NCBI GenBank assembly: GCA_905178155.1
Contig: CAJINV010000014.1
Location: 2,358,247 to 2,422,246 of the forward strand
Direction: 5' to 3'
Origin: Amoebophrya sp. A120
Taxonomy: Eukaryota; Protista; Dinoflagellata
Length of the DNA: 64,000 bases
The notes beneath the pieces were generated by a model that made no database searches, was not told the origin of the DNA, and was given only the letters and a program-made list of their open reading frames with translations. Below, piece by piece: positions 1 through 54,300 of this stretch (positions within the stretch are counted from its first letter, which is position 1; each line of letters begins with the position of its first letter). Both the position numbers and the translations under genes were made by a program.

Positions 1-131
1 GTACTAGTATAAATTGCATCACAAATTTTGTCAAGAAAAAAAATGGAATTTGTAATGCTGATTTACCTAAAAAGGGATATTTGTCATGCATGATAGCAAT
101 TACTACGAGTACGATACTTTTGCACAGGATA
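1..131. mobile_element. Partial TIR introner, family D (left end outside window), inside U2SURP
   Basis: Ends ...CGATACTTTTGCACAGGATA at 131, the same terminus as copies 37691-37840 and 53551-53701; contains TTTGTAATGC and TTTGTCATGC motifs; interrupts the U2SURP frame. Confidence 0.8.
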
Positions 132-3100
132 TTCTCGGACTGGTGTTTATTCTTTTTCACCTTAGCCGCGGCTCCTTCCGGCTCTTCTGCTTTGGGGTTT
201 TTGCACAGCAGCCCCCTCTCCCGGCAGAGTTTCTCCAGTTGGGAGAAATGCTCAAACTTCGCCCACTCCTTGCGCTTCTGAGACATGCGCGAGCACTCCT
301 TGTAGTCGGAGATGGAGATTTCCCTTGAGAAACTCAACAAAAACGTCGCTTTCAAACCCTGTAAAAACATCGGGGAGAATAAACACGATTCCTGCCAGGC
401 GGCGAGAATCCGGCAAATCCGGCCGGCGAAGTACTGCTGAGGGAATCGCTTGTTGTCGTTTGTTAACGAAGAGGTGGAGGTACTAGTGGACTGCGTCTTG
501 AAGTAATCCTGGGCACTGAACATGTTGAACCCACTAGCTGCACCAGATAAATTTGTGTCGATTTCGTTTCGGTTTCCTTCTTTCTTGTTTCTCTTCTTTA
601 TCTTTTCATCATTCCCCGAAGAAGTTGTACTAGGGTTGCACTGCGTGTACAGAATCTTCCCGTACACCCAAAACATCTCCGGTAGATGTTGTTCCAGTTC
701 TTTCCGGTAGCACCAAGCCCTCGGTTGGGATAGGGAGGACGCGTTCTGTAACAAATCTGAGATCAGGTACATCCTGGCGATCGCGGAGTCGATATGGCGT
801 TCTCAACCGTTACACTCTCAACTGTTACATGATTTGTCATGCAAAATTACCTTCAGAGTCGACACCATCAAGCTGCTTCGTATGACAAATTCTCAGAGGG
901 CCGAGCAGGCTGATAATCGGTGCCAAATCTGTCATGCAAGACGCGCAAGATTCCCCCTATCACTTTTACCATTCTTGCATCACAAATTTATGTAACAGCT
1001 GAGAATGTAACAGTAACAGTTGAGAACGCCATAGTCGACCAGAAACCGGTTGTATTCGAACATGGCAGAGTCCTTCACTTCTTCAAATTTCTCGAATTCT
1101 TGCTTATCGCAGAGAAACTCCGCCGTCGCCTGCTTGGCGGAATTCGCGAATCGCTCCATCAGAATCGCCATGGCGCCGTAGATCGACTTCCGGGTCATTT
1201 TGAGTTGGCCGATGAGCTGCTCGAGCTCCTTTTTCCCTTCCTCGTCGAGGGGCTCCTGGCCCGCGACCTTCCGGGTCGACTGCTGATTCGACCACTTTGT
1301 ATCCAACTGCTCTCTGATGTTCATGGTTTTCATCTGGTTCTGCACGGTACTATTACCAGCTTGGTCAAGAAGAGAAGAATCAGGCCCACCACGTAGAACG
1401 CCGGTGACGATGCCGCTCGCAGCCGCCGCAAGCGCCTCTTCCTTGCTGGTGAACACCGATTTTTTTTCCTCCAAAATTTCCTCCTCCGTGCCATTTTCCG
1501 TCCGCCGTCGCTTCCGCCGGTAGGCGCCGGCCTCCTGGGGTATCGCGTAGTAAAACGCCTCGGGGATTTTCGGGGGGATAAACACCGGGCCGTTCCGCAC
1601 CATCTGGAACGGCTCCGTGCGCCAGCGGGTCCTTTCGTCGCCCTGGGTATAGGCGTACACCCGCCACTTGTAGTAAAGGGCTTCCTTCTCAGCATAGTTT
1701 GGGTCTCTCGGGTCCAGAAGAAAGTCGGCATTGACGAGGGAGGTAGTAGTTGTAGTAGCGGCTGAGATAGATGAAGAGGCGGTCTTAGTTTTTTTCGCAG
1801 GTGAATTCTCGTTCATCTTTTTGCGCTTCTTTTTACTCGAAGATTTCTTTGCGGTTATGGGAGAAACATCTTCCCCATCCCCTCCTGCTTCATCTTCGCC
1901 TGAGGACTCTGATGACTTTTCTTCTTTGCCATGATCAACCTCCTTGATGTCCTCGTCGGCCTCCGAGTCTGATAAGTTCTTCTGGTTCTGTTTGTGGTCA
2001 TCCTCATCGTCATCATCATTCTCCTGTCGCTCATGCAGCTTTATCGCAGCATGACTACTACTTTCCGCGAAGTTCAGAATGCCCTCTTTCACGTCCTGCC
2101 GGATCTGCTCTTCAAATGTATACCCGCATTTTGCTACGTACTGCGCCACAATGTCGATGAACCGGTGCTGTTCCTTCGTTTTCGGCACCTCTATCGTGAT
2201 TTTCTCGCGGCTTTCCTGCTCCTTGGTCTTTTGCTTCATCTCCTCGAGCAGGATGTCAAGGTCCTTCTTCTTCTGGTCCTTTTTGCTCATCGTGTTTTTC
2301 TGCTGGTAACGGCTGGCCAGATTCTGCAGCTTGTCGTCGAAATTGAGTGCAGGTTTAGGTTCAGCTGGCGTCGGCTTTTCATTTTTCATCGTTTGTTCAC
2401 CCGAAAAATTATTGTCGCTTTGCTGCACGTGTTGTAACTCCGGAAGATTTTCTTGCTGCAGCGCTTGCATTTGTTGATTGATTTTCTGCTGGAGGATCTG
2501 TTGCTGCATTTGCACCATCTGCATCTGCTGAAAAAAGATATTCCCTGAAAATTAACCATCCCCATCCAATTTGTCATGCAAAACATACATAAAATCATGT
2601 GTTTGTCATGCAAAAAGTGGATGGGGATGGGTAATTTTCAGGGAATAAAAGATCACCCCGTCGTATTGATTCGTGCCTGCACCGGCACCGGCGGGCGGGG
2701 TGGGAAAGCCTGGTAGCGTAGTACCGCTCATTGTCGTGTTTTGGTCGTTTTGTCCCATTATCAGAGACTGATTCATGAAGTTACTCGCAGCGGTGAAGGG
2801 AGCGGCTTTCGGCTGCAGAGAAGGTTGGAACAGTGCATTTTTTACTTTTGGAGGTGGTTCTGCTTGTGCTCCTTCCGACTTCACCGTATGATCTGCTCCT
2901 GCAGTCGCGCGGCCATTCGCCGGCGGGGGTTTCTTGCGCTCGTGATGTTTCTCTTCGTCTATGTCGTCGTAGTCAACAGACTTTTGTGGGTCTGCTCGCC
3001 GACCAGAGTCTGTCCGTCCGTCTTCCTGTTCCTTGGAGCGGTCTCTACTCCTCTTTCCACCTCTTGAATCCGCCCGTCGCCGCTGCCGCTCATTCTCACG

Positions 3101-3724
3101 GAGGTCACGGGTGCGCTCGCGCGGTTTTCGTTCTTCCCGACCCCGAGAGAAGTCCTCATTCATGGGAAGATCAACATCTTCTACTGCTCTGGTACTTCTT
3201 CGCTGCCGATCGCACGCTCCTGTCGTGTTTGTTGTAGTTCTCGCCCGTGAGTCTGCTCCTCGCTTGTTCTCCACCGTCCTTCTAGCACGAGGAGCATCTC
3301 TACTGTCTTTGATATCCCGTGCGGATCTTAGTGGAAGCTTCTCGTCCCTCCCCGAGGACCCAGAGTCGGCCCGTTTCGACGCTTGTTTCTGTTTGTCTTT
3401 CTGAAGCCGCGCGATCCTGCCCTCCTTCTTCCGGTCGTCCTCTCCAGACGAGGTCGTAGAAAGTCTTGTTGCGCGGGTAGTGGTTTTATTTGTCGTGGGC
3501 TTAATATCCCTACTGTTGCTCGCAGGAGCCCCCGGTGCTCTCGCCGCTCTTCTGCTGTCCTCGCGCTCGCGGCTGCGCTGCTCCCGGTGCTGCCGCCGGG
3601 ACCGGGCATCTTCATGATTCTTCGTGCTCTTTGCAGCAGCTCCCTTGTCGCGAGAGTCTTCCCGTCGCGCGGGGGCTGCTCCGCGACCGCCACGGGGGCG
3701 AGATTGTTCGGCGCGGGATTTCAT
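132..3724 (-). CDS. U2SURP: U2 snRNP-associated SURP motif-containing protein (SR140), multi-exon, 3' end beyond window start
   Basis: SURP-like EQHRFIDIVAQYVAKCGYTFEEQI; YYKWRVYAYTQGDERTRWRTEPFQMVRNGPVFIPP; CID-like IARMYLISDLLQNAS..WCYRKELEQHLPEMF and RICRILAAWQESCLFSPMFLQGLKATF, joined in frame after removing the elements at 793-1033 and 2539-2647. Confidence 0.88.
793..1033. mobile_element. TIR introner family A (241 bp), TSD GTCGA
   Basis: TATGGCGTTCTCAA...TTGAGAACGCCATA; GTCGA at 788-792 and 1034-1038; removal gives YNRFLVDSAIARMY. Confidence 0.93.
2539..2647. mobile_element. TIR introner family I (109 bp), TSD AAAGA
   Basis: ~30-bp near-perfect TIR TATTCCCTGAAAATTA(A/C)CCATCCCCATCCA; AAAGA at 2534-2538 and 2648-2652; removal gives YDGVIFFQQMQ. 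Confidence 0.92.
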
Positions 3725-4576
3725 GCTTGCACGTCATGCGCCGCTGACTCACGAATATATGGCGCGTGGTGGAACAAGGTAAGAACTAATGGTGACTGAG
3801 CCCTGACGGGATTTTCGGGCACCTACAAACTCTGGGCAGGAGGGTCGGGATAAGTATATCATGGGTCATTGTTTGCGCTTGGGTTCCTGTGTATGCGTCA
3901 AGCTCAAGTATCGCTACACGCTACCATGTCATATTTTTTTTTTTGGAGCGAACGTCAATGTTATGTCGCCACCTCGAGGGAGGTTTGTCTGTGTGCCTGT
4001 CATGTAGAAAACAAAATAGTACGCCAGGAGAAAAAATACACTTGTAACTACTGCCGCAGACAAAGTGAAACACTATTTGTTGCCTTGAGCTACCTTGATC
4101 TTGATCTTTGTTCGATAAAAATGCAGGCAGAGATCCGGAAAAGAGTGCTCGTCGGAGATCTTCAAAAAGGCTGGTGCAAAAATTTTGATACATCATCCGT
4201 TGGTCTGCCTCTGCGCTTGTGCAGTGTGATCATATGATCAGCACATTGATAATAATACCTATCCGCGGAACAAAATGCTAGTGCAACTGCTGGAGAGCCT
4301 TCGTCGTCAACTTAATCATTGTCGCTCGTAGACAGCGACGCGAAAGCTTTCCATTTTTCTCAAATTCTGAAACTCTCCTGTATTCTCAACAAATTGACCA
4401 TCACTACAGTCGTGAAGATCCACTTTGTCTTCTTCTTCTATTGCTGCTACGACTAAGTTCTTTTTAGATACTAGCAGCGTCTGCGACGGATCAACATTTT
4501 GGTGCGTAGGTATCTTCTTGTTGGTTCTGTCCCTTTCGACGCTGGTGCTACAACCAGCACTATCTCCAGAACCTGT

Positions 4577-20468: not shown

Positions 20469-21075
20469 TTGGCTTTAGTACTTGGTAGCAGCCATCAGGG
20501 AATCGGGGATGCCGATTGTTGTTTTGTTTCGATTTTGGTTACACTTTCATCTTCCTGAAGACACCTGTAACTCATCATGTTTCTATTTGTGGCCCGCTTC
20601 TCATTCTGATTTCATGTACACCTTTCCGCGCTTGCATGGGCAGATGCAGATGCAGAAGCAGATGAACGGAGCGGAGCGGAGCAACCTGAGAGCAACTCAA
20701 ACACGACCAGAAACGTCGTGTATGTGATTCAACAAAAATCTGAAGGAAGTGACCACGTACTACATCAAAAGCACAGAGTGAAATTCTAGATCCTTTTAAT
20801 TTTCGTGGTCGAAATCATGTCGACCTGATGAACAAAATAGAACAACATACGTCCAAAAGAACACCGAAAGCGCAGTGAGTTGTCCTCTTGCATTCTCATG
20901 CCAGATCAGTTGCGTCTTCCTAGTGGAAGGCCGCAAAAGGACCGCAGACAGCGGCAGACTAAAACTAAAAGCAACTAGAAGTAGCACGACCATCAAGCCG
21001 CGCCGTGACGTTAACCTTAACACTTGCTAAACCTAGAAGAGGAGTCCCTGAGTTTCGAACAAGCAAAAAAAAATT

Positions 21076-34500: not shown

Positions 34501-37500
34501 CGTTTCTGCCATTACAAATTGACAGTGATATCGCAACTGCTTTTCCCCAGCATACCCGCACCAGGGCCCATCCCGTAGGGGTCTTCCTCCATCATCCACG
34601 GGTCTGGCTCATCGTTAAATCCGCCATGCATCATCGCGTAGGGATCTTCGCCCGCGGCCACGGAAATCATCTGCCCTGTCATTGGGTCATACACCATCCC
34701 CGCGCCAAATTCCATGGTATCCGCGAAGGCCTCGAACCGGATGCTCCCAACGTCAATCCCCGATACGCTGGACTCGGTGCAAGCGTGGACAAACGCCTGC
34801 TTCGAATGCAACTGGAACTGCGCGTTGCTCGCGATTGCGCCGGGGGGCTGGTGCACGTTCTGCGCTTTAATTTTCACCTGCAGCTCGGAGAAGTAGTTGT
34901 AACGGGTGGTGGAGCTCGTTTGGAGGTGCCGCTGTGGGGCGGCGACCGTGATAGGAGATGAGGGTTTAGGAGTTTGCTCTTTGTTCTTCTCTACTGCGGC
35001 TCTTTCTGTAGATTTTTCCTCCTCCAGCCGGCGCGCCCCGTCTCCGTCGAAGAGATTGTTCATCTCGAGAATCTCGAAGCAGTCGCTTGGACACTGGATC
35101 TGCGGGAACATCGGATCGTACGGGACGGTCAGATAATTTTGGGCCCAGAACACCTCCCGCATCGCCGTGTTGAAGTTGGGGTCCGTTTGTTCCCGGAACT
35201 TCTTCTGGATTCGGTACTTGAACCCGTTCGGGCCCATGTAGGGGTCCGCGGGGGTGCCGGAGCAGGCCATCGTGGGGGGCCACTGCCCGTTGCAGCTACC
35301 CGGATCCAGAAACTCGCGCTTCAGCAAAAACTCGATTTCCGCCCACCGCCGGATGGAGAGGTGCACCGCGATTTCCGTCTCCCGATTCATATTGTCCGGG
35401 GCCGGCCAGCCCGGAAACGGAATCCCCGAAGGGAAATTGCCGATCCGGACCGAGACAATGTCGTCGTGCTGGGAATCGGTGCTCGAGGTCTGCAGCCCAA
35501 GCCCAAAGGTGAAGGCGGTCCTGAAGGCATCGCTCAACGCCCCCCAACTCGCCAGGCCGACGTTTTGGCCCGAGCTGGTCCGTCCGCCGTTGTTCAAGTC
35601 CCAGTTCTGGCTGTGCGACATCATCATTCCATTGCTCCACGGGGCGGTTTTCAGCTTCACCAGAAACGTATAGACGCGCGACGTCATCGCGGCCGGGATC
35701 AGGCAGGGGTTGTTGAACGGTGTCACGTAGAACGACGTGAAGCAGTTCGTTTCACCAGGCACGGAATTCAGGTTCGAGTCCTGAAACAGCAAATTCCTTG
35801 CTGGGCTCGTCATCTGCAGGTCGTTGCCCCCGGCGCCCGCGGTTTGCGTGTCCGTTTCTAGGTAATTGTAGATGGACGTGTCCGGGGAGAGGTTCGCCAC
35901 GTACTGCCGCGCCAGCGTCCCCTTCACCCCGGCCGGGGAGAGCCCCTTCGGGAACCCGCCCACGTCCAGCCGCTGCCGCTTCGCGGTTTTCATGGCACTC
36001 GCGCTGTTGGCAGAAGTCGTTGCGGTCGTTGTGTTCGTGGTCTGGAGTTGCCGTTTTTGCTGCTCGGTCACCTTCTCCCCGTTCAACTCTCGAAGTTGCA
36101 ATCTTCTGAGCTTCATCTCCCGCGGCGAAAGCTTGTTCGCGTCGAGCTCCGCGGAGCTTTGTTCGGCGCTCTGACTGCTCAGGTTTTCCTCCGCAGAGGC
36201 GAGAATATCTTCCAAGGATCGGGTGTCACGACGAACAACGGTGGACTGCTCGTGTTGCTGAATCGCATCGTTTACAGATGCAGCCTCTCGTCCGCCAAGA
36301 CCACCGCCCGCACTCGACGTTCCGAGTTTCCGCAGAGCCCGCCGAGAGGTCGAGCTGGAGGTGGTGGCCGCCCGTGCAGTTTCCTGCGTCACCGTCGATC
36401 CCGAGCGGATTACCACCTCGGAACTGTCGATCTGTAACCGGAACGGCCCGGTTTCCGAGAAGGTTTGCTTCGGATCGTCCAACTGCATCACCATGTCTTG
36501 GTAGTCCCCCGTCATGCTACTGACCATCTTGGCGCTCGCGAAGTGCTTGTTCCGAAACTGGTTGCCGGTGGCCTTCAGGTGCAGCAGCTGCGTCTTCGTC
36601 TTTGAGTCCAGCGTCTCGGACGCGACCGCTGTCGCCAGCTCGTGGATGCCCTGCCCGAGGTTCAGTTCGATCGTGTAATTCTGCTCCGTGATGTTCTTCA
36701 CCGGAAATCCCGCTTTCGGCCCGATCTCCGCCTTCACAATGCGGTAATAGTTGATGGTGTCCGCCACCGTCACGTTGCCCGTCGTGCCGTAGGTGCGAAT
36801 CGTGTTCGCGTCCTGCTGGAGCACTTCCGACGCGGGGATGTCCCCCTCGGGGCGGTACTGACAGACGTACTCGTTCTTCTCGTTCTTGTTCGTCGCCCCG
36901 CTGTACAGCGTGTCGTGCGGGCAGGCCTTGCACTCGGACCCACCAACCGCTTCAAATTCCGACTTCTCCCCGATGTACCCGTACAACGACACCTCGCCCG
37001 GCATGGTGAGCGCGTAGCAGGGCTCCGACACCGCCACCTCCGCGACCCGCGGGTTGTAGACCGGAAACGTGCACCTCCCCAGCGGCGAGCAGATCTCCGA
37101 ACTCGCGCAGTACAGCACCGGCAGCGTCCCCGCCAAGCAGTCCGGGTCCGTCATACCGCAATTGCAGTCGCAAAATTCGCCGTCCATGTACCGATTCGGG
37201 GGGCAGACCCACAGCTCCGGGTTCGAGACCGCCGGGTAGTCCGTTGGCCGGTCGGTCTTGAAATTCAGCCGCGTGGAGCCGATGGACGTGCTATGGCGTT
37301 CTCAAATTGTACATTCTCAGCTGTTACATAAATCCGCAATGCAAGAATCGCAAAAGTGAAAGGGGGAAGGTTGCGCCTTCTGCATTACAGGTTTGGATGG
37401 AGCAGATTGCAATGCTATCTAGCGCGCCGAGAACTTGTCATGCTCATGCGCAGAGGGCTTGGAATGGTGAAAGGTGATGGCATTTTTGCATGACAAATTC

Positions 37501-40500
37501 ATGTCACATTTGAGAATGTAACGTTTGAGAACCCCCTACGTGCCGCGGGTGACTTTTAGCGTTTTGGAATCCGAGGCCGCGGTCACCAGCATGCGCTCCA
37601 CCCCCATGTCACCCGTCACGGTGATGTAGAAGGGAAAAGGCACCGTCCAGATGTAGACGGGGGACTTTAAGGTCAAGGTTTTGTCCGTCTTATCAACTGC
37701 AAAAGTATTGTATCGTACTCGTATAAATGCATTACAAATTTTCTTAGCATGAGAAATAAAATTTGTAATGCGGATTTGACTTGACAAGAAAATTTGTAAT
37801 GCATGACTGCAGTACGAATACGATACTTTTGCACAGGATACGTCTTCGTGGGTTTGTTCGCCTTCACGTAGGCCGTGTTGAAGAACGCGTCCCGCTTCTA
37901 TCCTATGTAAAAACGTACCCACCCCAGAGTTGTCATGCAAATCTGCATGCTGAAAATGTTTCTCATGCGGAGCCCGATGAGAAGCATTGCCCAGTCGTGT
38001 TCTGGAATTTGTCATGCTCCAATTAGAATGATATACTAGATCTGTGATACTGCTGAGCTAGCTCAAACGGCACTACACTACGAGTCCAAATTTGTCATGC
38101 AAAACAGCCACAACTTGTGGATTTGTCTAGCCGAGTCCCCATCTTGACTATGGGGTGGGGACGTTTTTACATAGGATAGCTTCCCGTCGCAAATCATCGT
38201 GTCGGCGGAGTACTGGAAGTTGTTCACGTAGCTCGCGAACAGCATCCAGTCCACCAGGTCGATCGGGACCTGGGACCGCGCCATGTTGGCCGTGTTGTTG
38301 GACAGAGACAGACTGTCGTTGTACCCCGTGTTGATTCCGTACACGGTTCGCAGACGCCGCTCCACGTTTACGCGGTACTTGCCCCAGGCGGTGGACTGCA
38401 TGAACGCCTTCGCGTTCGCGGTCGTCCAGTTCGACGTGATGATCATCATGTTGTCCATGCTGGTGCGGCGTCTCCAGGTCCCGGACTCGGTGTTCGTGTA
38501 GTGCGACACCGCTATGGAGCTCTCAAACGTTACATTCTCAACTGTTACATGATTTGTCATGCAAAATCACAATTAGAATTGATACGATCAAGCTGCTCCG
38601 CATGACAAATTCTCGAAGAGCCAAACAGGCTGAGAATCTGTGCCAAATCTGTCATGCTAGACGCGCAATGTCACCCCTTTGACTTTTGCCGTTCTTGCAT
38701 CACAAATTCATGTAACAATTGAGAATGTAACGTTTGAGAACGCCATAACCGCCCAGGAAAAGTTCGAACTCGCCAACGTGTCCATCGCTTTTCCGGAAGT
38801 GGTTTTCTGGTACTCGTATCCAAGAAAAAAACGTTGTTAGTGTAAATTTGTGATGCTAAAACAACCGCACCGACATTGCCATTTGTGATGCGCAGCATGC
38901 AACTTGATTGCGTCTGTCATGCTGTGCCTGCATTGTGGGGTCCATCCAAGGGCGTTTTCGCGTACTATCTGCGCATGACAGGTTTTTGCTGTCATGCGAG
39001 AGATATTTGTAATGCTAATCCTCCAAGAATAAAGTTACACCTACAATCTTTTTTTCTTGGATAACTCGCGCGAATGTTTCAGTAAACTCGGCCGCAGCGC
39101 CTCGTACTGGTACTTCGCGACCACGCCTGCTTGGAACTGGCAGGACTTCACGTTGCGCAGTTGCTTGCGGTCGAAACGCACAAAGGCGGCGACATCGTGG
39201 TCAAAGAAGGTTTTCACCGAGGGAAGCAGACCGAGATCACTGTACGCGTAGCGCAAAGCTATGGCGTTCTCAACTGTTACATTCTCAACTGTTACATGGA
39301 TTTGTGATGCAAGAATGACAAAAGAGCAAGGCGGAAGATTGCGCCTTTTGCATTAAATTTACAAGTTTGGTGCAGATTATAATGCTATCTAGTGCGTCAA
39401 GAAGTTGTCATGCGAAGCAGCTTGATCCTGTAGATGTGTATTGTAGTTTTGCATTACAAATCCATGTAACAGTTGAGAATGTAACGTTTGAGAACCTCAT
39501 AAAAGACTCGTCGTAGTTGTGGGTGTCGGACGTGACCGCCATTTCCCGGATGAACCTTGTCATGTTTGGATACGGAGAGTCCATGTCTGATCCCCCCGCC
39601 GGGTAGCTGTTGAAGATGATCGGGACCTTCTCCTGCGCCCCGAACGCCACCGGGATTTCGTCCTGCGCGGACGTCCCGCCAAAGTGCATTGTCATGAGGA
39701 AAAATCCCCTCTCCCCACATTGCAACGGCATGCCCTTGAAAATTTGCGATGCTGATCTGTGACCACAAATCGTGCCTGTCTTGCATAAGGGCAACCCCAC
39801 GGAGTCCGCCGCATTGCGGAGGCGGTTAGTGATGCTGCTGGGCCTACGGCGTAGGCGTTCTCATGCTAGGCGCCTACGTCAAAACCTCTCTGGTGCTGAG
39901 GCTTGGTATATCCCTGCAGTCCTCTACTGCAAGACAAGTATGATTTGTGTACGCAAATCCAGCATCAGAAACTTCGTTTCAATATGGGGAGGGGGAGTTT
40001 TTGCTCGTGATATGCATCCCCGTGTTGTCGCGCCACTCGATCTTCGCGAGCGAGGTCTGGGAGTCCGCTTCGTAGAACTCGATGTTTTGCACCCAGTGGA
40101 GGTGATGCAACACAAAAGCATATCGCACTTGCACTAGCTAAAATCGCATGACAAAGTACTTGTATTTTTCGAAAAGAAAAACAGTAACAGAGTTTTCAAT
40201 GCTGATTCAGGTAGAAGACAAAATCTCTCATGCAAGCCTGCAGAAGTAATTCATGCGAATGAAGTACGATACTTTTACAGTGGATAGAAATTGGTCACGG
40301 GCAGATCCCACTGAGGCGGTTCCGCCGGCGTCATCCAGTCGCCCAGGTACTTCTCGTTGTATTCGCAATCCGAGATATGGAAGCGTCAGGATCGAGATCG
40401 TCAAAGTTGAAATGATTTGTCATGCATAAAATGCATGACACGAAATGCGTGTGTTGCAGAGCAGGCAAGTGAGGCCGATTGTAAGCCTGTTTGGGGTTAC

Positions 40501-42410
40501 AGCTCGAGCTGCAGAAGTAACATGAGAGAATCAATCTTCTGTACCTAAACAGCATTACAAACTGGATTTAGGCACAACCAAAATTTGTCATGCGCCACTT
40601 GGAAACTGGGGTCCAACTGGCATCCATTTTCTGCATGGCAAACTATTTCAACTTTGACGATTTCAAACCTGACGGCTCCATACGAGAAGTCCACCGCGTA
40701 TTTGTCCGTCCTGCCGATCCCCCGGCCCCCGTCGTAGCTGGCGAGCGAGGGGCAGATTTTCTCCACGTTGATCTGAATCTCCCCCATCGCTTCGAGGGAG
40801 GTTTTGTCGCTGAAAAAATCACCGAGCGACCCAAAGAAGAGGATGGACACGTATTCACAGTAAATTTCCCGTACACGTACAAATGCTGGCGCCGCATGAC
40901 AGAACTAGGGCTGAAGCCTATTCAGCATGACAAGTGGTATGCTCCAAGTTGGCGAAATTTGTGATGCATTTTGTACATGTACGGGAAATTTGTATTGCAT
41001 AACACGATCACAAACAGCACGACGGAGAAGCAACAACCCGCAATCGTCTGCGGGGAATCCTCCGGCGTCACCTCGGCGCCGCGGTCCAACCGCTTCCCGA
41101 ACCGATCGCCGAGCTTCAGCCAGAAGGGGACCTTGAGCTCCATCAGATCCGTTTTCTGCGTCTCGCGGTCAAAGGGAAAGTATAGGGAGGGAGGAAGTCC
41201 TGTCAACACAGAAGGTTGCTTGATGGCACTTCTTGTTTTAGCTAGGTGAGCAGAAGAACTTGAAGAGAACGCATGCGCGACGAGGACGTCGAGGGCTCTA
41301 ATGCATAGAAGAAGCCGTATTTCTCGTGTGCTGGATTGTGTTTGTGACGCAAGGCTCCTGCTCCTAATATGCAGTTCTACTTACAGCGTGTAGTCCATCT
41401 CCATGCTGCCGTTATGACCATACTTAGTCTCCTGTACTAGCAACATCAAATCCATATCAATGAGAATTGCAAACAAAAACGCAGAGTGATGAAGCAGCTT
41501 TTCTCCCCCATAACTCATATTTCGGCACGAGTGCGCCAATCTGGAGCCAACACGCCATCATGTTGTCGTATATTCCCAGAAACACATTGGGCACGCCTTC
41601 TTGCCCCTTCGGAGTAGACGAAGTCGCGTCATCCTCCGCCATCGCGTGGGTTCCCTCTCTGTTCACCAGAACGGTGATTTTACTCCCGTGAGTTGTCAAT
41701 ATTTTCCTGTCCTCGTTGGCGCTCGAAAACATGTTGTTGTTCAGGTTGTTTGTTCTGTAGTCCACCGCGTCAGCCGACGTTGTAGAAGCTCCATCCACTT
41801 CTCCGCTCATCACCTGGTCAACGAACAAAGGTCCGCGTGCTGCAGCACCTGACCTCGCACGAACATTGTTTGCACCACCGGCTTGGCTCGGAGACGAGGA
41901 CGGGATGGATACAGTCAGAGGACTACCCGAAAGATCCCCTTCCTGAGCCGTCCGTGTAGTCTTCATGGATGACTCATATTGGTGCCCAGTGTGCAGTACC
42001 TTAGTCGTTCTTGAAGATGCTGAACCACCACGGGCCAATCGTCCCATTTGCTCCTCCTCCTCGGAAGAGCTCGGAACCACGGTGCTCAATTTGTAGTTTT
42101 TCGCAGACGAGTATGCAAGAAAAAAACTGTGTAAGTGTAAATCTGTGATGCAGAAAATGCAAAACAGTTACACTTGTCATGCTCGACATGCATGATCGGC
42201 TCCCTTCCTAGGTGTTTTCCCTTCCTATCTGCGCATAGCAAGTTTTTCCTGTCATGGCAGACAAACTTGTGATGCAGTTTTCCCAAAACAAAAGACTTAC
42301 ACTAACACAGTTTTTTTCTTGGATAACGAGGGCGGTGTCTCGGATAGGCTGCCCTCGTCCGTCGGCGGGGTCACCGCCCGCCGGAGTGGCGAAGATATGT
42401 TGCTGTCCAT
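25536..42410 (-). CDS. Giant (~3,600 aa, estimated) two-transmembrane protein with huge luminal/extracellular region; 22 TIR introners plus GT-AG introns
   Basis: ATG at 42410; frame continuous after excising each element plus 5 nt and GT-AG introns 26675-26866 and 28863-29022; TM1 IAGCCFSVVLFVIVSILFFG, TM2 LAGLLALIGALAGYTAIFAAILGLW; two W.C...DG.CDCNCG..D.DC modules. Junctions at ~41200-41520 unresolved. Confidence 0.78.
26193..26477. mobile_element. TIR introner family E (285 bp), TSD GACAT
   Basis: TATCCTGAGTAAAAACGTACCCAC...GGGGACGTTTTTACAAATGATA; removal gives EIPNMSLAGLL. Confidence 0.9.
27169..27432. mobile_element. TIR introner family B (264 bp), TSD GACGA/TACGA
   Basis: TATGGATTGCAAAAGTGTCTGGGTCTGGAAG...CTTCCAGACCCAGACATTTTTGCAATTCATA; removal gives AEPLVRGKAKC. 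Confidence 0.9.
27484..27719. mobile_element. TIR introner family A (236 bp, opposite orientation to 793), TSD TCGGT
   Basis: Family A TIRs; removal gives YMSGSTDYVDGQ. Confidence 0.92.
28283..28517. mobile_element. TIR introner family A (235 bp), TSD TCGAC
   Basis: Family A TIRs; removal gives PNVLEVEVGLF. Confidence 0.92.
28558..28763. mobile_element. TIR introner family C (206 bp), TSD CGTCA
   Basis: TATCAAAGAAAAAAAGTTCGTCAC...GTGACAAACTTTTTTCTCTCCATA; removal gives YKETVTETFTS. Confidence 0.88.
30680..30785 (-). repeat. Coding tandem repeat (30-bp unit) encoding HDPYDPYGGQ-type repeats
   Basis: HDPYGGYHDPYDPYGGQHDPYDPYGGQHDPYYDPY in ORF 28993-31224. Confidence 0.75.
31238..31499. mobile_element. 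TIR introner family B (262 bp), TSD TGCTA
   Basis: TATCAAATGTAAAAGTGTCTGGGTCTGGAAG TIR; removal gives FVVGSSRRELEM. Confidence 0.92.
31572..31829. mobile_element. TIR introner family B (258 bp), TSD GGCGA
   Basis: Family B TIRs; removal gives DSFRFALADTY. Confidence 0.92.
31986..32227. mobile_element. TIR introner family A (242 bp), TSD CAGTG
   Basis: Family A TIRs; removal gives ENPPPHCTGGK. Confidence 0.92.
32281..32442. mobile_element. TIR introner family D (162 bp), TSD GCGTT
   Basis: TATGCATTGCAAAAGCATCG...CGATGCTTTTGCACAGGATA; removal gives LLLENAESVDP. Confidence 0.9.
32584..32863. mobile_element. TIR introner family E (280 bp; one end TGT), TSD GCGTC
   Basis: Highly similar to 37899-38178; removal gives NREVGTQVETLG. 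Confidence 0.9.
34335..34554. mobile_element. Degenerate TIR introner (220 bp), TSD eroded
   Basis: TATGCGAAGGAAAAGC...GCTTTTCCCCAGCATA; flanks CTGGG/CCCGC; element plus 5 nt = 225 nt joins two same-frame ORFs; nearby GT-AG pairs do not preserve frame. Confidence 0.55.
37292..37538. mobile_element. TIR introner family A (247 bp; one end CTA), TSD CGTGC
   Basis: Family A TIRs; removal gives KVTRGTSIGST. Confidence 0.9.
37691..37840. mobile_element. TIR introner family D (150 bp), TSD CGTCT
   Basis: Very similar to 53551-53701; removal gives NKPTKTDKTL. Confidence 0.92.
37899..38178. mobile_element. TIR introner family E (280 bp), TSD GCTTC
   Basis: TATCCTATGTAAAAACGT(A/C)CCCACCCC TIR; removal gives ICDGKRDAFFN. 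Confidence 0.93.
38513..38747. mobile_element. TIR introner family A (235 bp), TSD ACCGC
   Basis: Family A TIRs; removal gives SNFSWAVSHYT. Confidence 0.92.
38817..39063. mobile_element. TIR introner family C (247 bp), TSD ACTCG
   Basis: TATCCAAGAAAAAAA...TTTTTTTCTTGGATA; removal gives KHSREYQKTT. Confidence 0.9.
39260..39501. mobile_element. TIR introner family A (242 bp), TSD AAAGC/AAAGA
   Basis: Family A TIRs; removal gives YDE(S/A)LRYAYS. Confidence 0.9.
39690..40012. mobile_element. TIR introner family F (323 bp; one end TGT), TSD TGCAT
   Basis: TGTCATGAGGAAAAATCCCCTCTCCCCACATT...AATATGGGGAGGGGGAGTTTTTGCTCGTGATA; removal gives DNTGMHFGGT. Confidence 0.88.
40104..40286. mobile_element. 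Degenerate TIR introner family D (183 bp), TSD GAGGT/GAAAT
   Basis: Right end CGATACTTTTACAGTGGATA; left end eroded; removal plus 5 nt gives VTN(F/L)HWVQN. Confidence 0.7.
40376..40682. mobile_element. TIR introner family G (307 bp), TSD CGAGA
   Basis: TATGGAAGCGTCAGG..ATCGTCAAAGTTGAAAT TIR; removal gives AVDFSDCEYN. Confidence 0.9.
40852..41001. mobile_element. TIR introner family H (150 bp), TSD ACACG
   Basis: TATTCACAGTAAATTTCCCGTACACGTACAAA TIR; removal reunites TM helix VLFVIVSILFFG. Confidence 0.9.
42112..42325. mobile_element. TIR introner family C (214 bp), TSD ACGAG
   Basis: TATGCAAGAAAAAAACTGTGT...ACACAGTTTTTTTCTTGGATA; removal gives TPPSSAKNYKL. Confidence 0.9.
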
Positions 42411-48380: not shown

Positions 48381-51300
48381 TTATCCGTCAATTCCTAGCA
48401 CCCATTCAAACGGTTCTGGGGGTTCCGGCTCCGGGTCTTCGATTTTCTTACTTGGCTCCACAAACTCTTCGGCTTCGTTGGGATTCCGATCCTCCAGCAG
48501 CAAAAAGCCAGACTGTCGGTCGTTCTGCAAAATCGGCACGTACCGGACCGGCTTCATCTCCGTTGCGGGCTTCGCTTCCTTTCCATCCTTTAATTCTGTG
48601 CTTGTTTCCACCTTCGCAGCGCCTTCCTCTTTCTCCTTGTCTTTACTTTCGGAATCTCCCAACGGGACTGTAGTTGTTGCTGGGACCGCTGGCGCCGCGG
48701 GTACCTCGACGGGAATCAGGCCGGTTAGTGTGAATTTGATATACTTCTCCTGAATCGGGATGACCCGCGATGGGTTGTGTAACGGCATGCAGCTCGGCAG
48801 CGCCTTTTTCTTCTTCTCCCCCTCCTTTTCCTTGCTCTCGCCGTCCTTCGCTTGTTTGCCGCTGGTGTCTTTGCCATCGGTAGCTCCTGCTTTTGCCTTT
48901 TTACTTCCAGCACCACCCTCTTCATCCACCTCCATTTTGTCGGCGTCCTCGAACTTCTTTGCGAACGCCGCCACTTTTTCGTCCTGTCCCTTCGACGGGA
49001 TTTTCTTCTCCCCCGCGGCACCGGCAGCGGTGGGTGTTTTACCGTCCTTCTTCTCCTCCCCCTCTTTCGGCAACAGACTCTCCGGGCTGTCCTTGGCGGT
49101 TGGCGTCTTGCTGCTGGTGCGCTCCATGCCGGCCTTCCCGCCCGTTTTTTTCGCGGCCGTGGACAGAACCGCCTTGGTTTTCGTCACTTCCTCGGCCTTC
49201 TTGGACTCTTCCGGCATCGGGTAGTCGAAGAGATTGTTCTTAATTTTCGATCCGTACCCTGTCACGTCGGAGTGGAACGAAAAGTGTTTCGGCATCTTGA
49301 GGTCTTTGTTCAACCCGATCACGGCCGTGGGCACGAAGGAAAGGGACAAGCCGTGGATTATCCTGTGCAAAAGTATCGCACTCGTATAAATGCAGGTCTT
49401 GCATGACAGATCTGCTTTTTTAGCTTGTTCTGCATGACAAATTTAATTTTTCTTTCCGGAAAAATTTGTCATGCGTTTTGTACTAGTACCATACTTTTGC
49501 AGTGCATATGGATCAGCGGGTACCAATACCACATCTGCGTGAACAGCAAAAACCCGACCGCTGCGCCCTGTCTCACTGCGCCAGACTTGGAGAAAAAGGA
49601 AGCGCACACGTTGCGCCCGCCTGTGGTGGATTTTCTTAGCTGATAAAACCTAATTGAAGCATGCGCAGTGCCGTTGGCTATAAAACGCAGCCCCGTCAGG
49701 AGGTATTATAGATGAAACCAATGCAAATACTAGGGATCAGTTGTTCTGTAGTTCCTGAACTACAACACAACCTGGCCCTTGACAAAGAAAGCCACAACGC
49801 AGGATATAGATTTTGTTAATATTATGCAAGATGAAAACAAGTGTAACAAGCTTCTTTGGCCAGATGCAAGATGAAAACAATAAAGTTGTACCCGCGTCCA
49901 TGATTCCCTGAGCCAGCAGTGCTCCAAACCTGGTGGCCACGTCCTCGTGCTTTTCCCCGATGCACTTCATCACTTCACTTCGAAACTTCTCCGCGTTGTC
50001 GGTGACGGACTGCATGTACAGCAGCGACATGGCGACGTAGGCTCCCTTATGGATTGCAAAAATGTCTGGGTCTGGAACAAAGCAACTTGTCATGCTAGAT
50101 CTGAATCATGTGAAAATCTGTGTTGCATGATTACCAAAAGTAGCTGTCCACTTTTGACCTAATCGAGAGGCAGTTTCTCGCGCAGGATAGGCATGATAGA
50201 ACTAACACAGAATCTGTCATGCTATGTCCTACATGCCAGACCTCATGGGTCATGCAAAATATGCATGACAAACCTGGCAATCTTCCAGACCCAGATATTT
50301 TTACAGTTGATATCCCTGCCGCACAAAGTCCGTGTTGTCCGCCAACAGGGGGCGTAAGATGTCCTCGCAGTCCGCGTTCGCGCTGCCCGCGTTCGAGTAT
50401 TGTGAGGAAAAGTCTCCCCCCCCCCATATCGAAAAGGAAACTTGTGATGCTGATCTGTGACCACAAATCAGCTCTGTCTTGCGTACAAGGTAAACGGCAC
50501 CCATGTGGCGCATTGTACAGCGAGTCTGTCATGCGTTTTCGCCTATGTGGGACTTGTTTCTCATGTTTAGCTCCTAGCCGGACGCGTAGCCAAATGAGCG
50601 TAGAATATGCCGCCAAGCTCTTGCTACAATACTAATTTCATTTGTGTACACAAATCCAGCAACTTTTGAATATGGGGCGGGGGCTTTTTCACTTTGATAT
50701 CGAGATCCCGAGAGTGAGGGCCGCGGCGTAGCGGACGTGTGGGTTGTAGCTAGTGGCGAGCAGTTTCACCATCTGCGGCACGCGTGTGGGCACGTTGCAC
50801 ATCACAAACGCCAAGCCCAGCACCGCCGCCCGCCGCACGTCGTCATTCACGTCGGACACTGCCAGGTGCAGCAGCTTCTGAATCGACCGGCTCGAGGCCG
50901 TGCCGCAGTAGGCCATGGCGATCACGAAGCACCCGCCGTACCGCAGGATCGGGTCCTTCTCGAGGAGCAGCTGTTCCGCGAGCGAGTCGGCGGACTCCTC
51001 CTTCTGAAACATGATCAGGGCCAAACTGACCGCGCACCCGCGGATGATCTTCTCGTGCTGGGTGTCCTGCGCGTACTGGAGAAGTTCCTTGATTTCCTTC
51101 TCCGAGGCGGAACCGCACATAACCTGTTTTATTTTTAGCACAAGCAACTAGTACCAGGGTAGAAAAAATAAAAAATGATCGTGCTGCACGACATATCTTC
51201 AAACGTTTATACGTTTTTCGCTTTCTACTCGTGATACTAGATGGAGTAAGGCTGCCTTCTGGTTCGCCATCGTATGAATCATACAGCCTCAACAAACTAC

Positions 51301-54300
51301 AGTGTAGTTTGTGCGGATGTGTAACACGGCGTGTAACACGGCGTGTTACACGGCGTCACAACGTCTCACGAGGAAACAACCCTCGCGATTCAGCATGCAT
51401 GATATATAGTAATGGTTTTGATTTAGTACTAGCCAATAGAAGTTCACCACTATCACATACCAGTCCCATCCCGTACGCTGCGGCTTCCCCGGTGATGGCC
51501 TGGTCGGTGTACAGTGCCTGTTTCATTTCCTCCACCAGAACTGGGTTGTGCGTGCCCATGGAACTCAACCCCAGTCCCAGGCACGCCCCGTGCCGCAAGA
51601 TCTCGCTGTGCTGGCCCTGCTTCAACTGCTTCAGCAGGTACTCCTCAACCTCTTTATCGTAGTAGTTCCCGTGCACCAAGCCCATGGCAAACAGCGCACC
51701 GCCCTCCGCATACGACCCGCTGGTCTGCTGTCCGCCCTGCGCGTCCTCCCGGGGGAGGTAGGCGGCGAGGATGTTTTTGGACTCCTTAATGTGGCCGCGG
51801 TGGACGACGCCGAGGGAAGCGGTGGTAGAGAACTTTGCCCACATCACCGCTCGGGACATCCAGTCCAGGTTTTGCCGAAGATAAATGTCGCTGGACGTGC
51901 CGGCCTGGAGAAGTGGTTTAGATTTGGGTTTATGATTGGAACTCCAACTCCTAGTTCTTACAACGTCTACTTGCATATTAGTCTAGTACTTTTGCTTTTG
52001 CTCGGTGTCAAAACAAAGTCATGAGATGACGACACACTTGAAATGCACTCATCACCCAGCATGATTATGATACGATACCTGCATAAACGCGTGCATGAAC
52101 ATGTGTCCGGTGTGGAGAATTGCGTTTTTCTGGTCGCAGGCCTTCTTTGCCTTGTCGAGAATGAGTAAATCGGTCCGGTTGTTTTTGAACAGGAAGGAGA
52201 GGTTCAATTCCAGCTTTTTCAAGCCGGAGAGGATGCCGAGCAAAAGGTCAAACTCCTTGTCTAGCTGCTCGTTGTAGTCCGGGAGGCCCGCGTCGTCGCT
52301 GATAGCCTGCATTTCCACCTCTCCGCCGGCCGGAGCTGTTTTGGTGATAATGATTATTGTTCCTACTTTGTGGCTTTTTTATTGCCGACAATCATGCACA
52401 AGAAATGCGGGGAAGCAGAAAGGTTACTCAAGCAACTCCTTCACGAATTGCTTCATCATGTTGACAATGATACGTTTTCTACTTAAAACTACTCAAAGCG
52501 GATTTTCTAGCTTGAGGAGAGAAATATATCCTGTTTATGGAGTTCTGCATGGCAAATAAAATACCAATATTTTGCCATTCCGAATCCGTGTTACCTGGCT
52601 CTCCGCCCTCTGCCGCTAGAGCAGCAGCAGCTGCAGCTGCTTCTACAACCGGCTCGACGACCTTCTTTTTCCCCACAATTTTGTCCTTGTCCGCCTTCAG
52701 TGCCTGGACCAAATCGCGGCAAAACTGCTGATTTTCGTTCTCCACGATGTCAAACGCCAGCTGAAACACGAGCAGCAAGTTCTTCGTGCTCTATGACAGT
52801 GCACAACTCCCCCTCCCCCTCATTTGTCATGCAAAATACCCAATCATCATCATCATCATGTAGTGGACACCCTCTCCCAGCGCCACAGGTCAAGGAGCAC
52901 CTCCCCGGGGGGTGGGCGAGGAAGCGCTTTCGGCAACCTCATCATACAAAAGCCGAGCGCTACCACGGCAAGTCGCCCCAAGAAAAGTGCCAACCAGTCG
53001 GGAGCTACCCACCACACCTGATCAGTACAGCCCGGCCAGCTAGCCGAGCGCGACCTTTTGTCTCTTGGCACTGTTTGCATGACAAGCTCTGGTAGCCCAA
53101 ATAGCACTACACTCCGGTTCATATTTGTCATGCAAAACCGGCATTCTTGCTGATGCTTGTATTACCGTTCATGCTATACAAATGAGGGGGAGGGGGAGTT
53201 GTGCACTGTCATATGCTGTCTTCCGACTCTACTTGCGGTTCTTTCTCCCCACTGTCCACGTCCATTTTGTCTCCTGATGAAGCTGTTGTAGTCGCCGCTC
53301 CTCCAAGCGTAATCTCGCGCTTCAACAGCATGGTCAGCAGATCCTTCGAGCTGGTAACGTCGTTTGCGAAGCAATAGCACTGCAAAAGCTTCGTGATGAA
53401 CTTCAGCTTTATATTCGAGGATCCGGCTGTGCTGGAAGTAGACGTGCTGCTCTTCGCGTTGGAGTTCAGACCCTGTTTCTTGTAGATGTCGATCAGCAGC
53501 TTCACCAGCTGCATGCGGAACTCCCGACTGCCGATCGCCGGGTTGCGCAGTATGAACTGCAAAAGTATCGCACTCCCACTCGTATAAATGCATTACAAGT
53601 TTCTTCAGCATGAGAAATGAAATTTGTAATGGGGATTTGCCTTAAGAAAAAGATTTGCAATGCATGATTGCAATACGAGTACGATACTTTTGCACAGGAT
53701 ACGCAGGTTCCTCTGGCAGTAGTCAATCATCTGAAAGAGGAAGGGCGAGGACGTGACAAAATCCTCAACTTTGTCCAACCTCTTGCATTCGATCGCAATG
53801 CCCAGGCCGTGGTACCTGAAAGAATGGCTTCATTCGTCGTGCTCTACTTCCAGATCGATGACGTCATCCCACTTTTATCTAAGTAATTATGCGAAGAAAA
53901 CAGGTACATTTTCGTCTACTTCAACGTCGATATTGAAAAACGCGAAAGCACTCGCCTCGATGAGCATGAGCACGACATGATGTCGTATCAAATTTCTAAA
54001 AAATAAAGCTCTACCACTCCTGGTCCTTTTTACACCGCGCGAACATGCGTTCCACAATGTCGAGCAGCCGGCTGTCCAGGGCGGGAAGGTCGGTTTTTCC
54101 GTTGTCCATCTCCTGCTTGTAGACGATGTACTTGTCAATGCACTTCGTCACCATTTTTTCCACGTACTCCGTCCGGTCGGTCAACTTGAAAAACTCTTCC
54201 GCACCGAGAGCGTATTCCAGGGCAATGTCGTAAAGCTCCAAGTGGTAGTTCACTTTGGAAAGGACCTGTCATTTTTTCGTTTGTAGAACCAGTTGATGGG

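What the first reader, a model, noticed from the sequence alone, without database searches (positions are those of the whole stretch)
1..53701. One internal motif, TTTGT[C/A/G]ATGC, is shared across otherwise unrelated families
Families with non-homologous TIRs carry repeated TTTGTCATGC/TTTGTAATGC/TTTGTGATGC on either strand. Examples: ~833, ~880 (reverse), ~928 and ~977 (reverse) in the 793 copy; two copies in the 109-bp element; three in the 422-bp element; four in 28558-28763. By eye it is rare in exons and intergenic DNA. Inference: it is a binding site for a common trans factor (transposase or intron-marking protein) and may be the real identity signal of this intron class.
Basis: partly seen in the sequence, partly recalled or inferred. 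Interest (0 to 1): 0.8.

Follow-up and report, generated by a model that had tools for sequence, protein, structure and literature searches.

The report
Shared docking word in jumping introns
Dozens of small jumping introns in what is likely the marine parasite Amoebophrya differ in most of their sequence yet nearly all repeat one 9-base word on either strand at fixed spacings, and two likely aged copies that have almost lost it are still missing from transcript-type sequence, so the word is likely a docking site for the unknown enzyme that spreads them rather than a splicing signal.

Summary
The motif is real: 48 hits against 0.49 expected; 47 lie in 31 TAT..ATA / 5-bp-duplication elements, none in 10 GT-AG introns or host exons. 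Its true form is YTGT[C/A/G]ATGC. It recurs in 146 of 165 unselected elements from another assembly. The elements match the published Amoebophrya A120 introners; 18 of 18 displayed transcript joints skip element + 5 nt. In all 11 families the motif is more conserved than its spacers and sits at set distances (31-32, 39-42 or 54 bp from the end; 30-33 bp apart in 7 of 11 families). It lies on both RNA strands alike, except in family D (1:11), shows no pairing covariation, and is nearly gone from two decayed copies that are still removed. The element ends, by contrast, carry a strand-specific signal. Most likely it is a repeated double-stranded DNA site for one shared mobilising protein, not the splicing identity signal. 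No protein was identified. I did not find it in print (six searches). This scan reported the motif and its phasing earlier on other DNA of this genome.

The parts
1..131 (.). Family B element, cut by window start; motif sites 16-, 49+, 80+
   Evidence: no RNA laid here
793..1033 (.). Family A element, TSD GTCGA; sites 833+, 880-, 928+, 977-
   Evidence: no RNA laid here
2539..2647 (.). Family G element (109 bp); sites 2570+, 2602+ (one strand only)
   Evidence: no RNA laid here
26193..26477 (.). Family D element; sites 26223+, 26239-, 26253+, 26302+, 26335+, 26387+, 26418+
   Evidence: skipped +5 nt (290)
27169..27432 (.). Family C element; 7 sites from 27210+ to 27385-
   Evidence: skipped +5 nt (269) in X1, X4 and X5
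27484..27719 (.). Family A element; sites 27525+, 27574-, 27622+, 27670-
   Evidence: skip 241
28283..28517 (.). Family A element; sites 28323+, 28370-, 28418+, 28467-
   Evidence: skip 240
28558..28763 (.). Family H element; sites 28602-, 28616+, 28676-, 28691+, 28709+
   Evidence: skip 211
31238..31499 (.). Family C element; 6 sites from 31276+ to 31450-
   Evidence: skip 267
31572..31829 (.). Family C element; 5 sites, all on the minus (mRNA) strand
   Evidence: skip 263
31986..32227 (.). Family A element; sites 32082-, 32130+, 32178-
   Evidence: skip 247
32281..32442 (.). Family B element; sites 32323-, 32360-, 32375+, 32399+
   Evidence: skip 167
32584..32863 (.). Family D element; 4 sites, all on the plus (non-mRNA) strand
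   Evidence: skip 285
34335..34554 (.). Decayed element (old1): TAT..ATA ends kept, TSD 3 of 5 mismatched, no site at 10 bits (one 9.5-bit remnant at 34509-)
   Evidence: skip 225
37292..37538 (.). Family A element; sites 37333+, 37382-, 37434+, 37488-
   Evidence: skip 252
37691..37840 (.). Family B element; sites 37729-, 37747-, 37762+, 37793+
   Evidence: skip 155
37899..38178 (.). Family D element; 4 sites, all plus strand
   Evidence: removal inferred from exact contig length
38513..38747 (.). Family A element; sites 38553+, 38600-, 38648+, 38697-
   Evidence: length arithmetic
38817..39063 (.). Family E element; sites 38847+, 38882+, 38913+, 38973-, 39006+
   Evidence: length arithmetic
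39260..39501 (.). Family A element; sites 39301+, 39404+, 39451-
   Evidence: length arithmetic
39690..40012 (.). Family F element; variant sites 39743+, 39775+, 39857+, 39929-, 39962-
   Evidence: length arithmetic
40104..40286 (.). Partly decayed B-like element (TSD 2 mismatches, one end GAT); sites 40146-, 40224+
40376..40682 (.). Family I element; sites 40416+, 40552-, 40584+, 40633-
   Evidence: length arithmetic
40852..41001 (.). Family J (B-like layout) element; sites 40894-, 40925-, 40958+
   Evidence: length arithmetic
41181..41512 (.). Decayed element (old2): TSD 5 of 5 mismatched, no strict motif, one 11.4-bit remnant at 41341+
   Evidence: removal of 337 nt inferred from exact contig length and a contig piece starting at 41514
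42112..42325 (.). Family E element; sites 42142+, 42173+, 42266+
   Evidence: contig piece ends at 42106
49359..49508 (.). Family B element; sites 49401-, 49432-, 49465+
   Evidence: skip 155
50048..50312 (.). Family C element; sites 50086+, 50117+, 50213+, 50263-
   Evidence: skip 270
50398..50699 (.). Family F element; sites 50441+, 50525+
   Evidence: skip 307
52792..53213 (.). Family K element (422 bp); sites 52823+, 53077-, 53124+
   Evidence: skip 427
53551..53701 (.). Family B element; sites 53590-, 53608-, 53623+, 53654+
   Evidence: skip 156
143..3725 (-). Host gene with a Surp module; holds the 793 and 2539 elements (limits approximate)
25536..42400 (-). Host gene of about 3,600 aa, no Pfam hit in the two large exons scanned; holds 23 elements and two GT-AG introns (5' limit approximate)
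48381..54690 (-). Host gene with PC_rep/HEAT repeats (26S proteasome RPN2-like; the name is my recall); holds 5 elements and six GT-AG introns

Best explanation
The word YTGT[C/A/G]ATGC is repeated 2-7 times inside these TAT..ATA introns on either strand at fixed spacings, and is likely a double-stranded DNA binding site for one shared mobilising protein (likely an integrase-type transposase or its helper), while splicing likely reads the element ends instead. Shown: enrichment, conservation above the spacers, fixed distances, near strand-blindness, and exact removal of element + 5 nt from transcript-type contigs. Inferred mechanism: several subunits would bind the array on one face of the helix. 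The outermost inward-facing site starts 31-32, 39-42 or 54 bp from the end, and same-strand sites lie 30-33 bp (three turns) apart. The array would bring the two TAT ends together for cutting and for insertion with a 5-bp stagger. Only copies with an intact array would be copied, so spacers and TIR positions 4-10 drift into 'unrelated' families while word and spacing stay. Once a copy stops moving the word decays, but the host keeps the ends, because it needs them to remove the intron.
For: Enrichment. Out of sample, 146 of 165 non-window, non-seed elements carry the word (380 hits in 41,730 bp). Held-out identity, motif vs other interior: A 0.81/0.57, B 0.84/0.62, C 0.83/0.52, E 0.77/0.57, I 0.84/0.68, K 0.87/0.69, D 0.66/0.60; higher in all 11 families. 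Spacing: 13 inward-facing outermost sites at 31, 31, 32, 32, 39, 41 x4, 42 x3, 54 (R=0.83 at 10.5-11 bp); 30-33 bp pairs in 7 of 11 families, P=0.018 against the best 4-bp window of random placements. The right-end module of B (35/53/68) recurs in E and H shifted by 11 bp (46/64/79). Strand-blind: 306 mRNA-sense vs 335 antisense sites in 162 non-window exonic elements; 12 have only sense and 14 only antisense sites. In the window, 31572 (sense only) and 32584 (antisense only) are both skipped. No covariation between facing sites: N matched in 24 of 54 pairs, 25 expected. Decay: old1 and old2 score below 137 of 138 young elements yet are removed. Motif score falls with TSD mismatch (rho -0.19, p=0.02, n=142; rho -0.29, n=179 with window elements). 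Ends are strand-specific: all 6 non-TAT 5' ends keep TA, all 8 non-TAT 3' ends keep the third base (209 elements, Fisher p=0.0003). One element with the same ends and TSD carries eight internal copies of a different word, YTGTTATCG (L133:8451-8971), as a family-specific binding site would. A120 family 38, with integrase-like ORF homology, is annotated '5-bp TSD, TA/TA Termini' (PMC12130899).
Against: No protein or autonomous element was found: no genome was available, and PMC7789003 reports no putative transposase in A120. Family D, whose sites nearly all face one way, lies 1:11 relative to the mRNA (p=0.006, about 0.07 after 11 tests). Ends with a single inward site are at the RNA 3' end 34:18 (p=0.036; 24:17, p=0.35 without D). 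The reverse strand reads GCAUNAC, which resembles a branch-point word. Only two decayed copies have RNA support, one of them by length arithmetic; both keep weak remnants; contigs show presence, not splicing efficiency. The phasing rests on three distance clusters in families that may share ancestry, and outward-facing sites are only weakly phased (R=0.57 at 10.5 bp, p=0.05). The variant-word element seems to sit inside a GT-AG intron, which also fits 'no standard word, no exonic survival'. 142 relaxed hits lie outside called elements in the other assembly (239,206 bp); 116 are clustered and probably missed elements, but I did not verify this.
Confidence: 0.62

Rival explanations
1. A host DNA-binding protein reads the word on the chromosome and marks these introns co-transcriptionally for the non-canonical splicing route; mobile families keep the word because it makes insertion in exons harmless.
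For: Fits strand-blindness and helical spacing as well as the best explanation. 192 of 218 elements score as exonic. The one element with a different word appears to be intronic. U1 snRNA was not found in these genomes (PMC7789003).
Against: Decayed copies with 0-1 weak sites are removed. The word weakens with age while TAT is kept. Distance to the DNA end in helical steps is easier to explain for an enzyme acting at that end.
Confidence: 0.15
2. The word acts in the RNA, its reverse strand GCAUNACAAA serving as a branch-point-like or enhancer signal near the 3' end.
For: Family D orientation 1:11 puts GCAUNAC about 31-40 nt before the 3' end; single inward sites favour the 3' end 34:18.
Against: Bias vanishes without D (24:17). 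In families C, I and F the 5' and 3' inward sites score alike (14.2 vs 15.1 bits, p=0.26, n=70). 34 of 37 family B copies have no inward site at either end and lie 17:20. 12 exonic elements have only the other strand. Zero strict hits in 10 GT-AG introns.
Confidence: 0.1
3. The word is a functionless leftover of one ancestral element from which all interiors descend.
For: Faint similarity between some masked consensi (A-I, F-I, D-K; 7 of 55 pairs at p<=0.05) and shared site layouts point to remote common ancestry.
Against: Motif columns are far more conserved than their neighbours in held-out copies, and spacer lengths stay fixed while spacer sequence is lost.
Confidence: 0.04
4. Facing copies of the word pair with each other, or with a small guide RNA, to fold the intron.
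For: Inward-facing sites at the two ends are 8.0-8.9 of 10 complementary.
Against: No covariation at the variable position (24 of 54 matched, 25 expected). Family D and G consensi have sites on one strand only. Small RNAs were not examined.
Confidence: 0.04

Closest known systems
Introner elements of Amoebophrya sp. A120 (Farhat et al. 2021, PMC7789003; Gozashti et al. 2025, PMC12130899)
   Same: Inverted repeats starting TAT, seven loose bases, then As; short direct repeats; non-GT-AG boundaries; many families. Family lengths here (about 109, 150, 206, 214, 235, 265, 280, 307, 322) match lengths listed for A120 families.
   Different: Neither paper's text that I searched mentions an internal motif shared across families, its spacing rules, or its decay in old spliced copies. 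Figures S19-S25 of PMC7789003 could not be seen.
Subterminal transposase-binding repeats of MITEs and DNA transposons (Emigrant/Lemi1, PMC1636448; hAT, CACTA, Sleeping Beauty and pogo as cited there)
   Same: Short repeated motifs inside the ends, in direct or reverse orientation, in non-coding TIR elements mobilised in trans.
   Different: Here one word spans at least 11 families with different TIR interiors, fills the whole element, and keeps distances in helical steps. [quoted passage not shown] Binding is shown there and untested here.
IS3EU/GingerRoot and Ginger2 integrase-type DNA transposons (PMC10045372, PMC12730594), and A120 family 38 (PMC12130899)
   Same: TA..TA termini as in IS3EU/GingerRoot; a 5-bp TSD is within the Ginger2 range; family 38 is listed with 5-bp TSD and TA/TA termini.
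   Different: IS3EU and GingerRoot make 6-bp TSDs, these make 5. No transposase gene is in any element examined. The family 38 sequence could not be read.
RAG 12/23 recombination signals; Mu and Tn7 end arrays (recalled, not from a call)
   Same: Protein sites whose distance to the cut differs by about one helical turn, or arrays of repeated sites at the ends.
   Different: Analogy only; no sequence likeness was tested.
Euglenid nonconventional introns and Fritillaria MITE-derived introns (review PMC11282704)
   Same: TIR/TSD-bounded introns without GT-AG.
   Different: No shared internal DNA word is described in the passages read.

Membership tests
Amoebophrya A120 introner elements | Terminal inverted repeats beginning TAT, about seven loose bases, then As | tested here: met
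   T1 1.00, A2 0.98, T3 0.99; A at 11-14 0.74-0.91, family-weighted over 198 elements. Families A, I and K lack the full A run.
Amoebophrya A120 introner elements | 3-5 nt direct repeat at the boundaries | tested here: met
   5-bp TSD, perfect in 24 of 30 complete window elements
Amoebophrya A120 introner elements | Removed from transcripts without GT-AG | tested here: met
   18 of 18 displayed element joints skip length + 5; nine more by exact length. X1 and X4 are RNA by guess and from one study; they also lack GT-AG introns.
Amoebophrya A120 introner elements | Repeated families | tested here: met
   12 families of 3-49 copies among 218 elements
Amoebophrya A120 introner elements | Host is Amoebophrya A120 | tested here: inconclusive
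   Inferred from the terminal consensus and family lengths; no direct taxonomic result (one search gave none)
Subterminal transposase-binding repeats | Short motif repeated near the ends in either orientation | tested here: met
Subterminal transposase-binding repeats | Conserved above flanking sequence among mobile copies | tested here: met
   11 of 11 families
Subterminal transposase-binding repeats | Motif is a copy of part of the TIR (as in Emigrant) | tested here: inconclusive
   Best match at offset 0 in both orientations, p=0.013 and 0.033 uncorrected among 16 registers, mean score negative
Subterminal transposase-binding repeats | Bound by the cognate transposase; shared with an autonomous element | not testable with these tools
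   No genome; no transposase domain in the 10 window ORFs scanned
IS3EU/GingerRoot | TA..TA termini | tested here: met
   definition in PMC10045372
IS3EU/GingerRoot | 6-bp TSD | tested here: not met
   5 bp; not filed under this family
Ginger2/TDD | 4-5 bp TSD | tested here: met
   5 bp; range from PMC10045372
Ginger2/TDD | TG..CA termini (recalled) and integrase-like transposase | tested here: not met
   TGT at 3 of 418 ends; the transposase could not be tested
Spliceosomal cis signal (branch point or intronic enhancer) | Strand-specific in the pre-mRNA | tested here: not met
   306 vs 335 sites; family D is an exception
Spliceosomal cis signal (branch point or intronic enhancer) | Present in every spliced intron of the class | tested here: not met
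   34335-34554 has no site at 10 bits and is skipped

The most novel reading that the evidence does not exclude
One protein, possibly domesticated by the host since no transposase was reported in A120, reads a phased DNA code: TAT end plus YTGTVATGC sites at whole helical turns, like a 12/23 rule. It mobilises dozens of sequence-unrelated intron families and also flags fresh insertions for the non-GT-AG splicing route until their ends take over, which would be a transposition-to-splicing hand-off never described.
Probability: 0.13. Interest if true: 0.88.

Novelty: new variant of a known kind. Interest (0 to 1): 0.56.

Why it matters
A120 carries about 30,000 such repeated introns (17% of the assembly, PMC7789003), and both how they spread and how they are removed are open; that paper found no transposase in A120. 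A shared, spaced DNA word collapses many reported families into one system. It gives a defined probe for pulling down the missing protein and a signature for finding the autonomous element. It also separates two signals, internal word for mobility and ends for splicing, each testable alone. Repeated subterminal binding sites are a known principle, so the concept is not new; its reach across unrelated families and its helical spacing are the unusual parts.

Tried and rejected
No whole genome was held, so no genome-wide count or transposase search was possible. A family C terminus had 0 hits in viral contigs. The first homology null (15 letter shuffles) was too noisy and was replaced. The first exon/strand call had a weak null (39% false) and was replaced by a codon model; family D's bias appeared only then. 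The idea that the TIR is a degenerate motif copy did not survive correction for 16 registers (150 shuffles were run, the printed label says 500). Candidate element 63251-63556 has no TSD, no motif and no RNA cover and was left out. The 1,096-bp family C derivative in L149 has no long internal ORF. Run X11 (raw reads) laid only 164 reads, nearly all on one repeat, so splicing efficiency could not be measured. Dataset S2 of PMC12130899 holds no motif string. Roy et al. 2023 is not held. The atlas look-up returned nothing. The literal motif search returned primers and Sox/Oct papers in the 25 of 1,477 listed; I treat the Sox/Oct likeness as coincidence. Rows dropped: L137, L150 and L144 as duplicates; seed-bearing elements for out-of-sample counts; copies off the family length by more than 15% or with TSD mismatch above 1; L135 and L148.

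Full report
Observation. The word TTTGT[ACG]ATGC occurs 48 times in the window against 0.49 in shuffles. I delimited the host elements without using the word, by TAT..ATA ends and a 5-bp target duplication, and added three decayed ones from the RNA evidence, giving 31. They hold 47 of the 48 hits in 7,331 bp. Ten RNA-supported GT-AG introns (2,196 bp) and 17,795 bp of host exons hold none, and the other 36,678 bp hold one. A matrix built on the elements gives AAA-YTGT[C/A/G]ATGC-A; TGTCATGC is the most widely shared 8-mer (11 provisional families, 26 elements, 50 copies against 4 in background).

What the elements are. They match the introner elements of Amoebophrya sp. A120: inverted repeats starting TAT, seven loose bases, then As, with 3-5 nt direct repeats (PMC7789003). 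Family lengths match those listed for A120 (PMC12130899 supplement 8, 41 of 58 rows seen). The organism is inferred, not shown. Contigs of runs X1 and X4 (RNA by guess, one study; they lack the GT-AG introns too) skip element + 5 nt at 18 of 18 displayed element joints; 15 of 74 and 15 of 16 joints were displayed. One of these joints is also in a metatranscriptome of another study (X5). Removing every element + 5 nt and two GT-AG introns from 25659-42106 gives 10,640 nt, exactly the contig's length, and one open frame of 3,586 codons. That covers nine elements whose joints were not displayed.

Out-of-sample test. A family A end found 28 loci in one other assembly, with no host-gene overlap with the window and best element identities of 66-97%; it may be the same species, so it is more data, not an independent lineage. 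A motif-blind search found 142 elements, 137 with the relaxed word. After relaxing the search and dropping three duplicate loci the set was 218 elements, 30 from the window. Of the 165 that are neither from the window nor carry the search seed, 146 have the word. 142 hits lie outside called elements in 239,206 bp; 116 are clustered and probably mark missed elements, which I did not check.

With motif columns defined on half of each family and identity measured on the other half, the motif beats other interior columns in all 11 families, by 0.05 (H) and 0.06 (D) to 0.31 (C), and approaches the terminal 30 bp. Alignments of families A and B show fixed site positions with spacers diverged. Masked consensi align significantly in 2 of 55 pairs at p<=0.005 and 7 at p<=0.05. 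The families probably share remote ancestry, but the word has been held while its neighbours were lost.

Geometry. The outermost inward-facing site begins 31-32, 39-42 or 54 bp from the end in 13 consensus ends (R=0.83 at 10.5-11 bp). Same-strand pairs 30-33 bp apart occur in 7 of 11 families (P=0.018). Head-to-head pairs 47-50 bp apart occur in A, C, I and K, and B's right-end module recurs in E and H shifted by 11 bp. Caveats: three clusters, related families, weak phasing of the nine outward-facing ends.

DNA or RNA. With host strand called by a codon model (192 of 218 confident; 30 of 30 window elements called minus, though the model was trained on window genes), 162 non-window elements have 306 sites on the mRNA strand and 335 on the other. 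135 have both, 12 only one, 14 only the other, 1 none. Ten of 11 families show no significant orientation bias. Family D does (1:11, p=0.006 uncorrected), in the direction that puts GCAUNAC near the 3' end; this is the main result against my reading and is unexplained. Facing sites do not covary (24 of 54 matched, 25 expected). The ends behave differently: all 6 deviant 5' ends keep TA and all 8 deviant 3' ends keep the third base (209 elements, p=0.0003). I ran that test after reading scan note e1-10625770.

Age. Elements 34335-34554 (TSD 3 of 5 mismatched) and 41181-41512 (5 of 5) have no strict word and score below 137 of 138 young elements, yet are absent from the transcript contig. Motif score falls with TSD mismatch (rho -0.19, p=0.02, n=142), on few old copies, which my end-based search under-detects. 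Both keep weak remnants, and contigs cannot show efficiency.

Mechanism. Shown: a conserved, spaced, nearly strand-blind word in mobile introns, nearly absent from two copies that are still removed. Inferred: it is a double-stranded DNA site for one trans-acting mobiliser whose subunits line up on one helix face to pair the TAT ends (0.62). TA..TA ends and a 5-bp duplication point to an integrase-type enzyme. A120 family 38, with LTR-integrase-like homology, is listed as '5-bp TSD, TA/TA Termini'. IS3EU/GingerRoot share the termini but make 6-bp duplications (PMC10045372), so I do not file the elements there. An element with the same ends and a different repeated word (L133) fits site-enzyme co-evolution, but being apparently intronic it also fits a splicing role. 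Rivals: host DNA marker for splicing (0.15), RNA branch-point-like signal (0.10), leftover ancestry (0.04), RNA pairing (0.04).

Literature seen. PMC7789003: abstract, outline, sections 12 and 16 whole, passages of 10, 11 and 32, supplement text by search; its figures S19-S25 were not visible and may show interiors. PMC12130899: passages, supplement list, searches of 13 of 14 files. PMC9860276, PMC10045372, PMC12730594, PMC1636448, PMC11282704: passages only. Roy et al. 2023: not held. Searches turned up no description of this internal motif; most subscription papers and bioRxiv supplements are outside the library. RAG, Mu and Tn7 comparisons, Ginger TG..CA termini and the RPN2 name are recalled.

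Novelty and score. The intron class is published and subterminal binding repeats are a known principle (PMC1636448). The cross-family word, its spacing and its separation from the splice signal are not in the texts I searched. This scan's earlier notes (e1-10626161, e1-10628275, e1-10628542) report the same word and phasing on other DNA of this genome; my counts predate reading them. New variant of a known kind; interest 0.56, because it makes the missing mobiliser of about 30,000 introns directly searchable.

Noticed in passing
L133:8451-8971: Element with TAT-N7-AAA ends and a perfect 5-bp TSD but eight internal copies (four per strand) of a different word, YTGTTATCG, same-strand pairs 93-95 bp apart like family A's 95-97; it appears to lie 18 nt inside a GT-AG intron.
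   Followed up: partly
L125:3862-4492 and L149:13712-14118: Two family C copies carry foreign inserts flanked by 13- and 15-bp duplications that both begin at the CATG of a motif site, as a motif-targeting retroelement would leave; earlier scan notes proposed such targeting.
   Followed up: partly
window 34335-34554, 41181-41512, 52792-53213: Mismatched TSDs constrain the cut: shift 0-1 for 34335, at least 1 for 41181, 0-4 for 52792. All fit an intron starting 1 nt before TAT and ending 4 nt after ATA, so that N-T-A mirrors the GTA start of all 10 canonical introns here.
   Followed up: partly
all element ends: Left and right TIRs pair at 0.97-0.99 at positions 1-3 and 0.92-0.98 at 11-14 but only 0.58-0.78 at 4-10: a short closing stem, a loose region, then a long stem.
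   Followed up: no
motif position 5: T is almost excluded at the variable position (5 of 361), although TATGC occurs 90 times in interiors.
   Followed up: no
family D (window 26193, 32584, 37899 and nine others): Orientation bias of 1:11 relative to the mRNA, unexplained.
   Followed up: partly
window 31237-31324: Run X11, otherwise unlike this window, has about 130 reads that follow a family C end for 87 nt and then continue in other sequence: a transcribed family C derivative, possibly longer, in another strain.
   Followed up: no
window 52543-52560 and 54405-54420: Two GT-AG introns each hold one matrix hit of the variant GCCATGC type also seen in family I; chance or remnants.
   Followed up: no
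window 8700-11550 and 23120-24400: GC-rich non-genic blocks; the first holds an array of CTTCTAAAA-type units (9877-9986, period 12).
   Followed up: no
window 55567-57240: 31-bp tandem array (11.5 copies), a TCAAATCTTA-type array, and two exact duplications of 122 and 137 bp; no X1 cover beyond about 57340.
   Followed up: no
window 12699-22080: Long minus-strand ORFs (1,550, 604 and 334 aa) with no elements and no Pfam hit; elements are concentrated in three genes.
   Followed up: no
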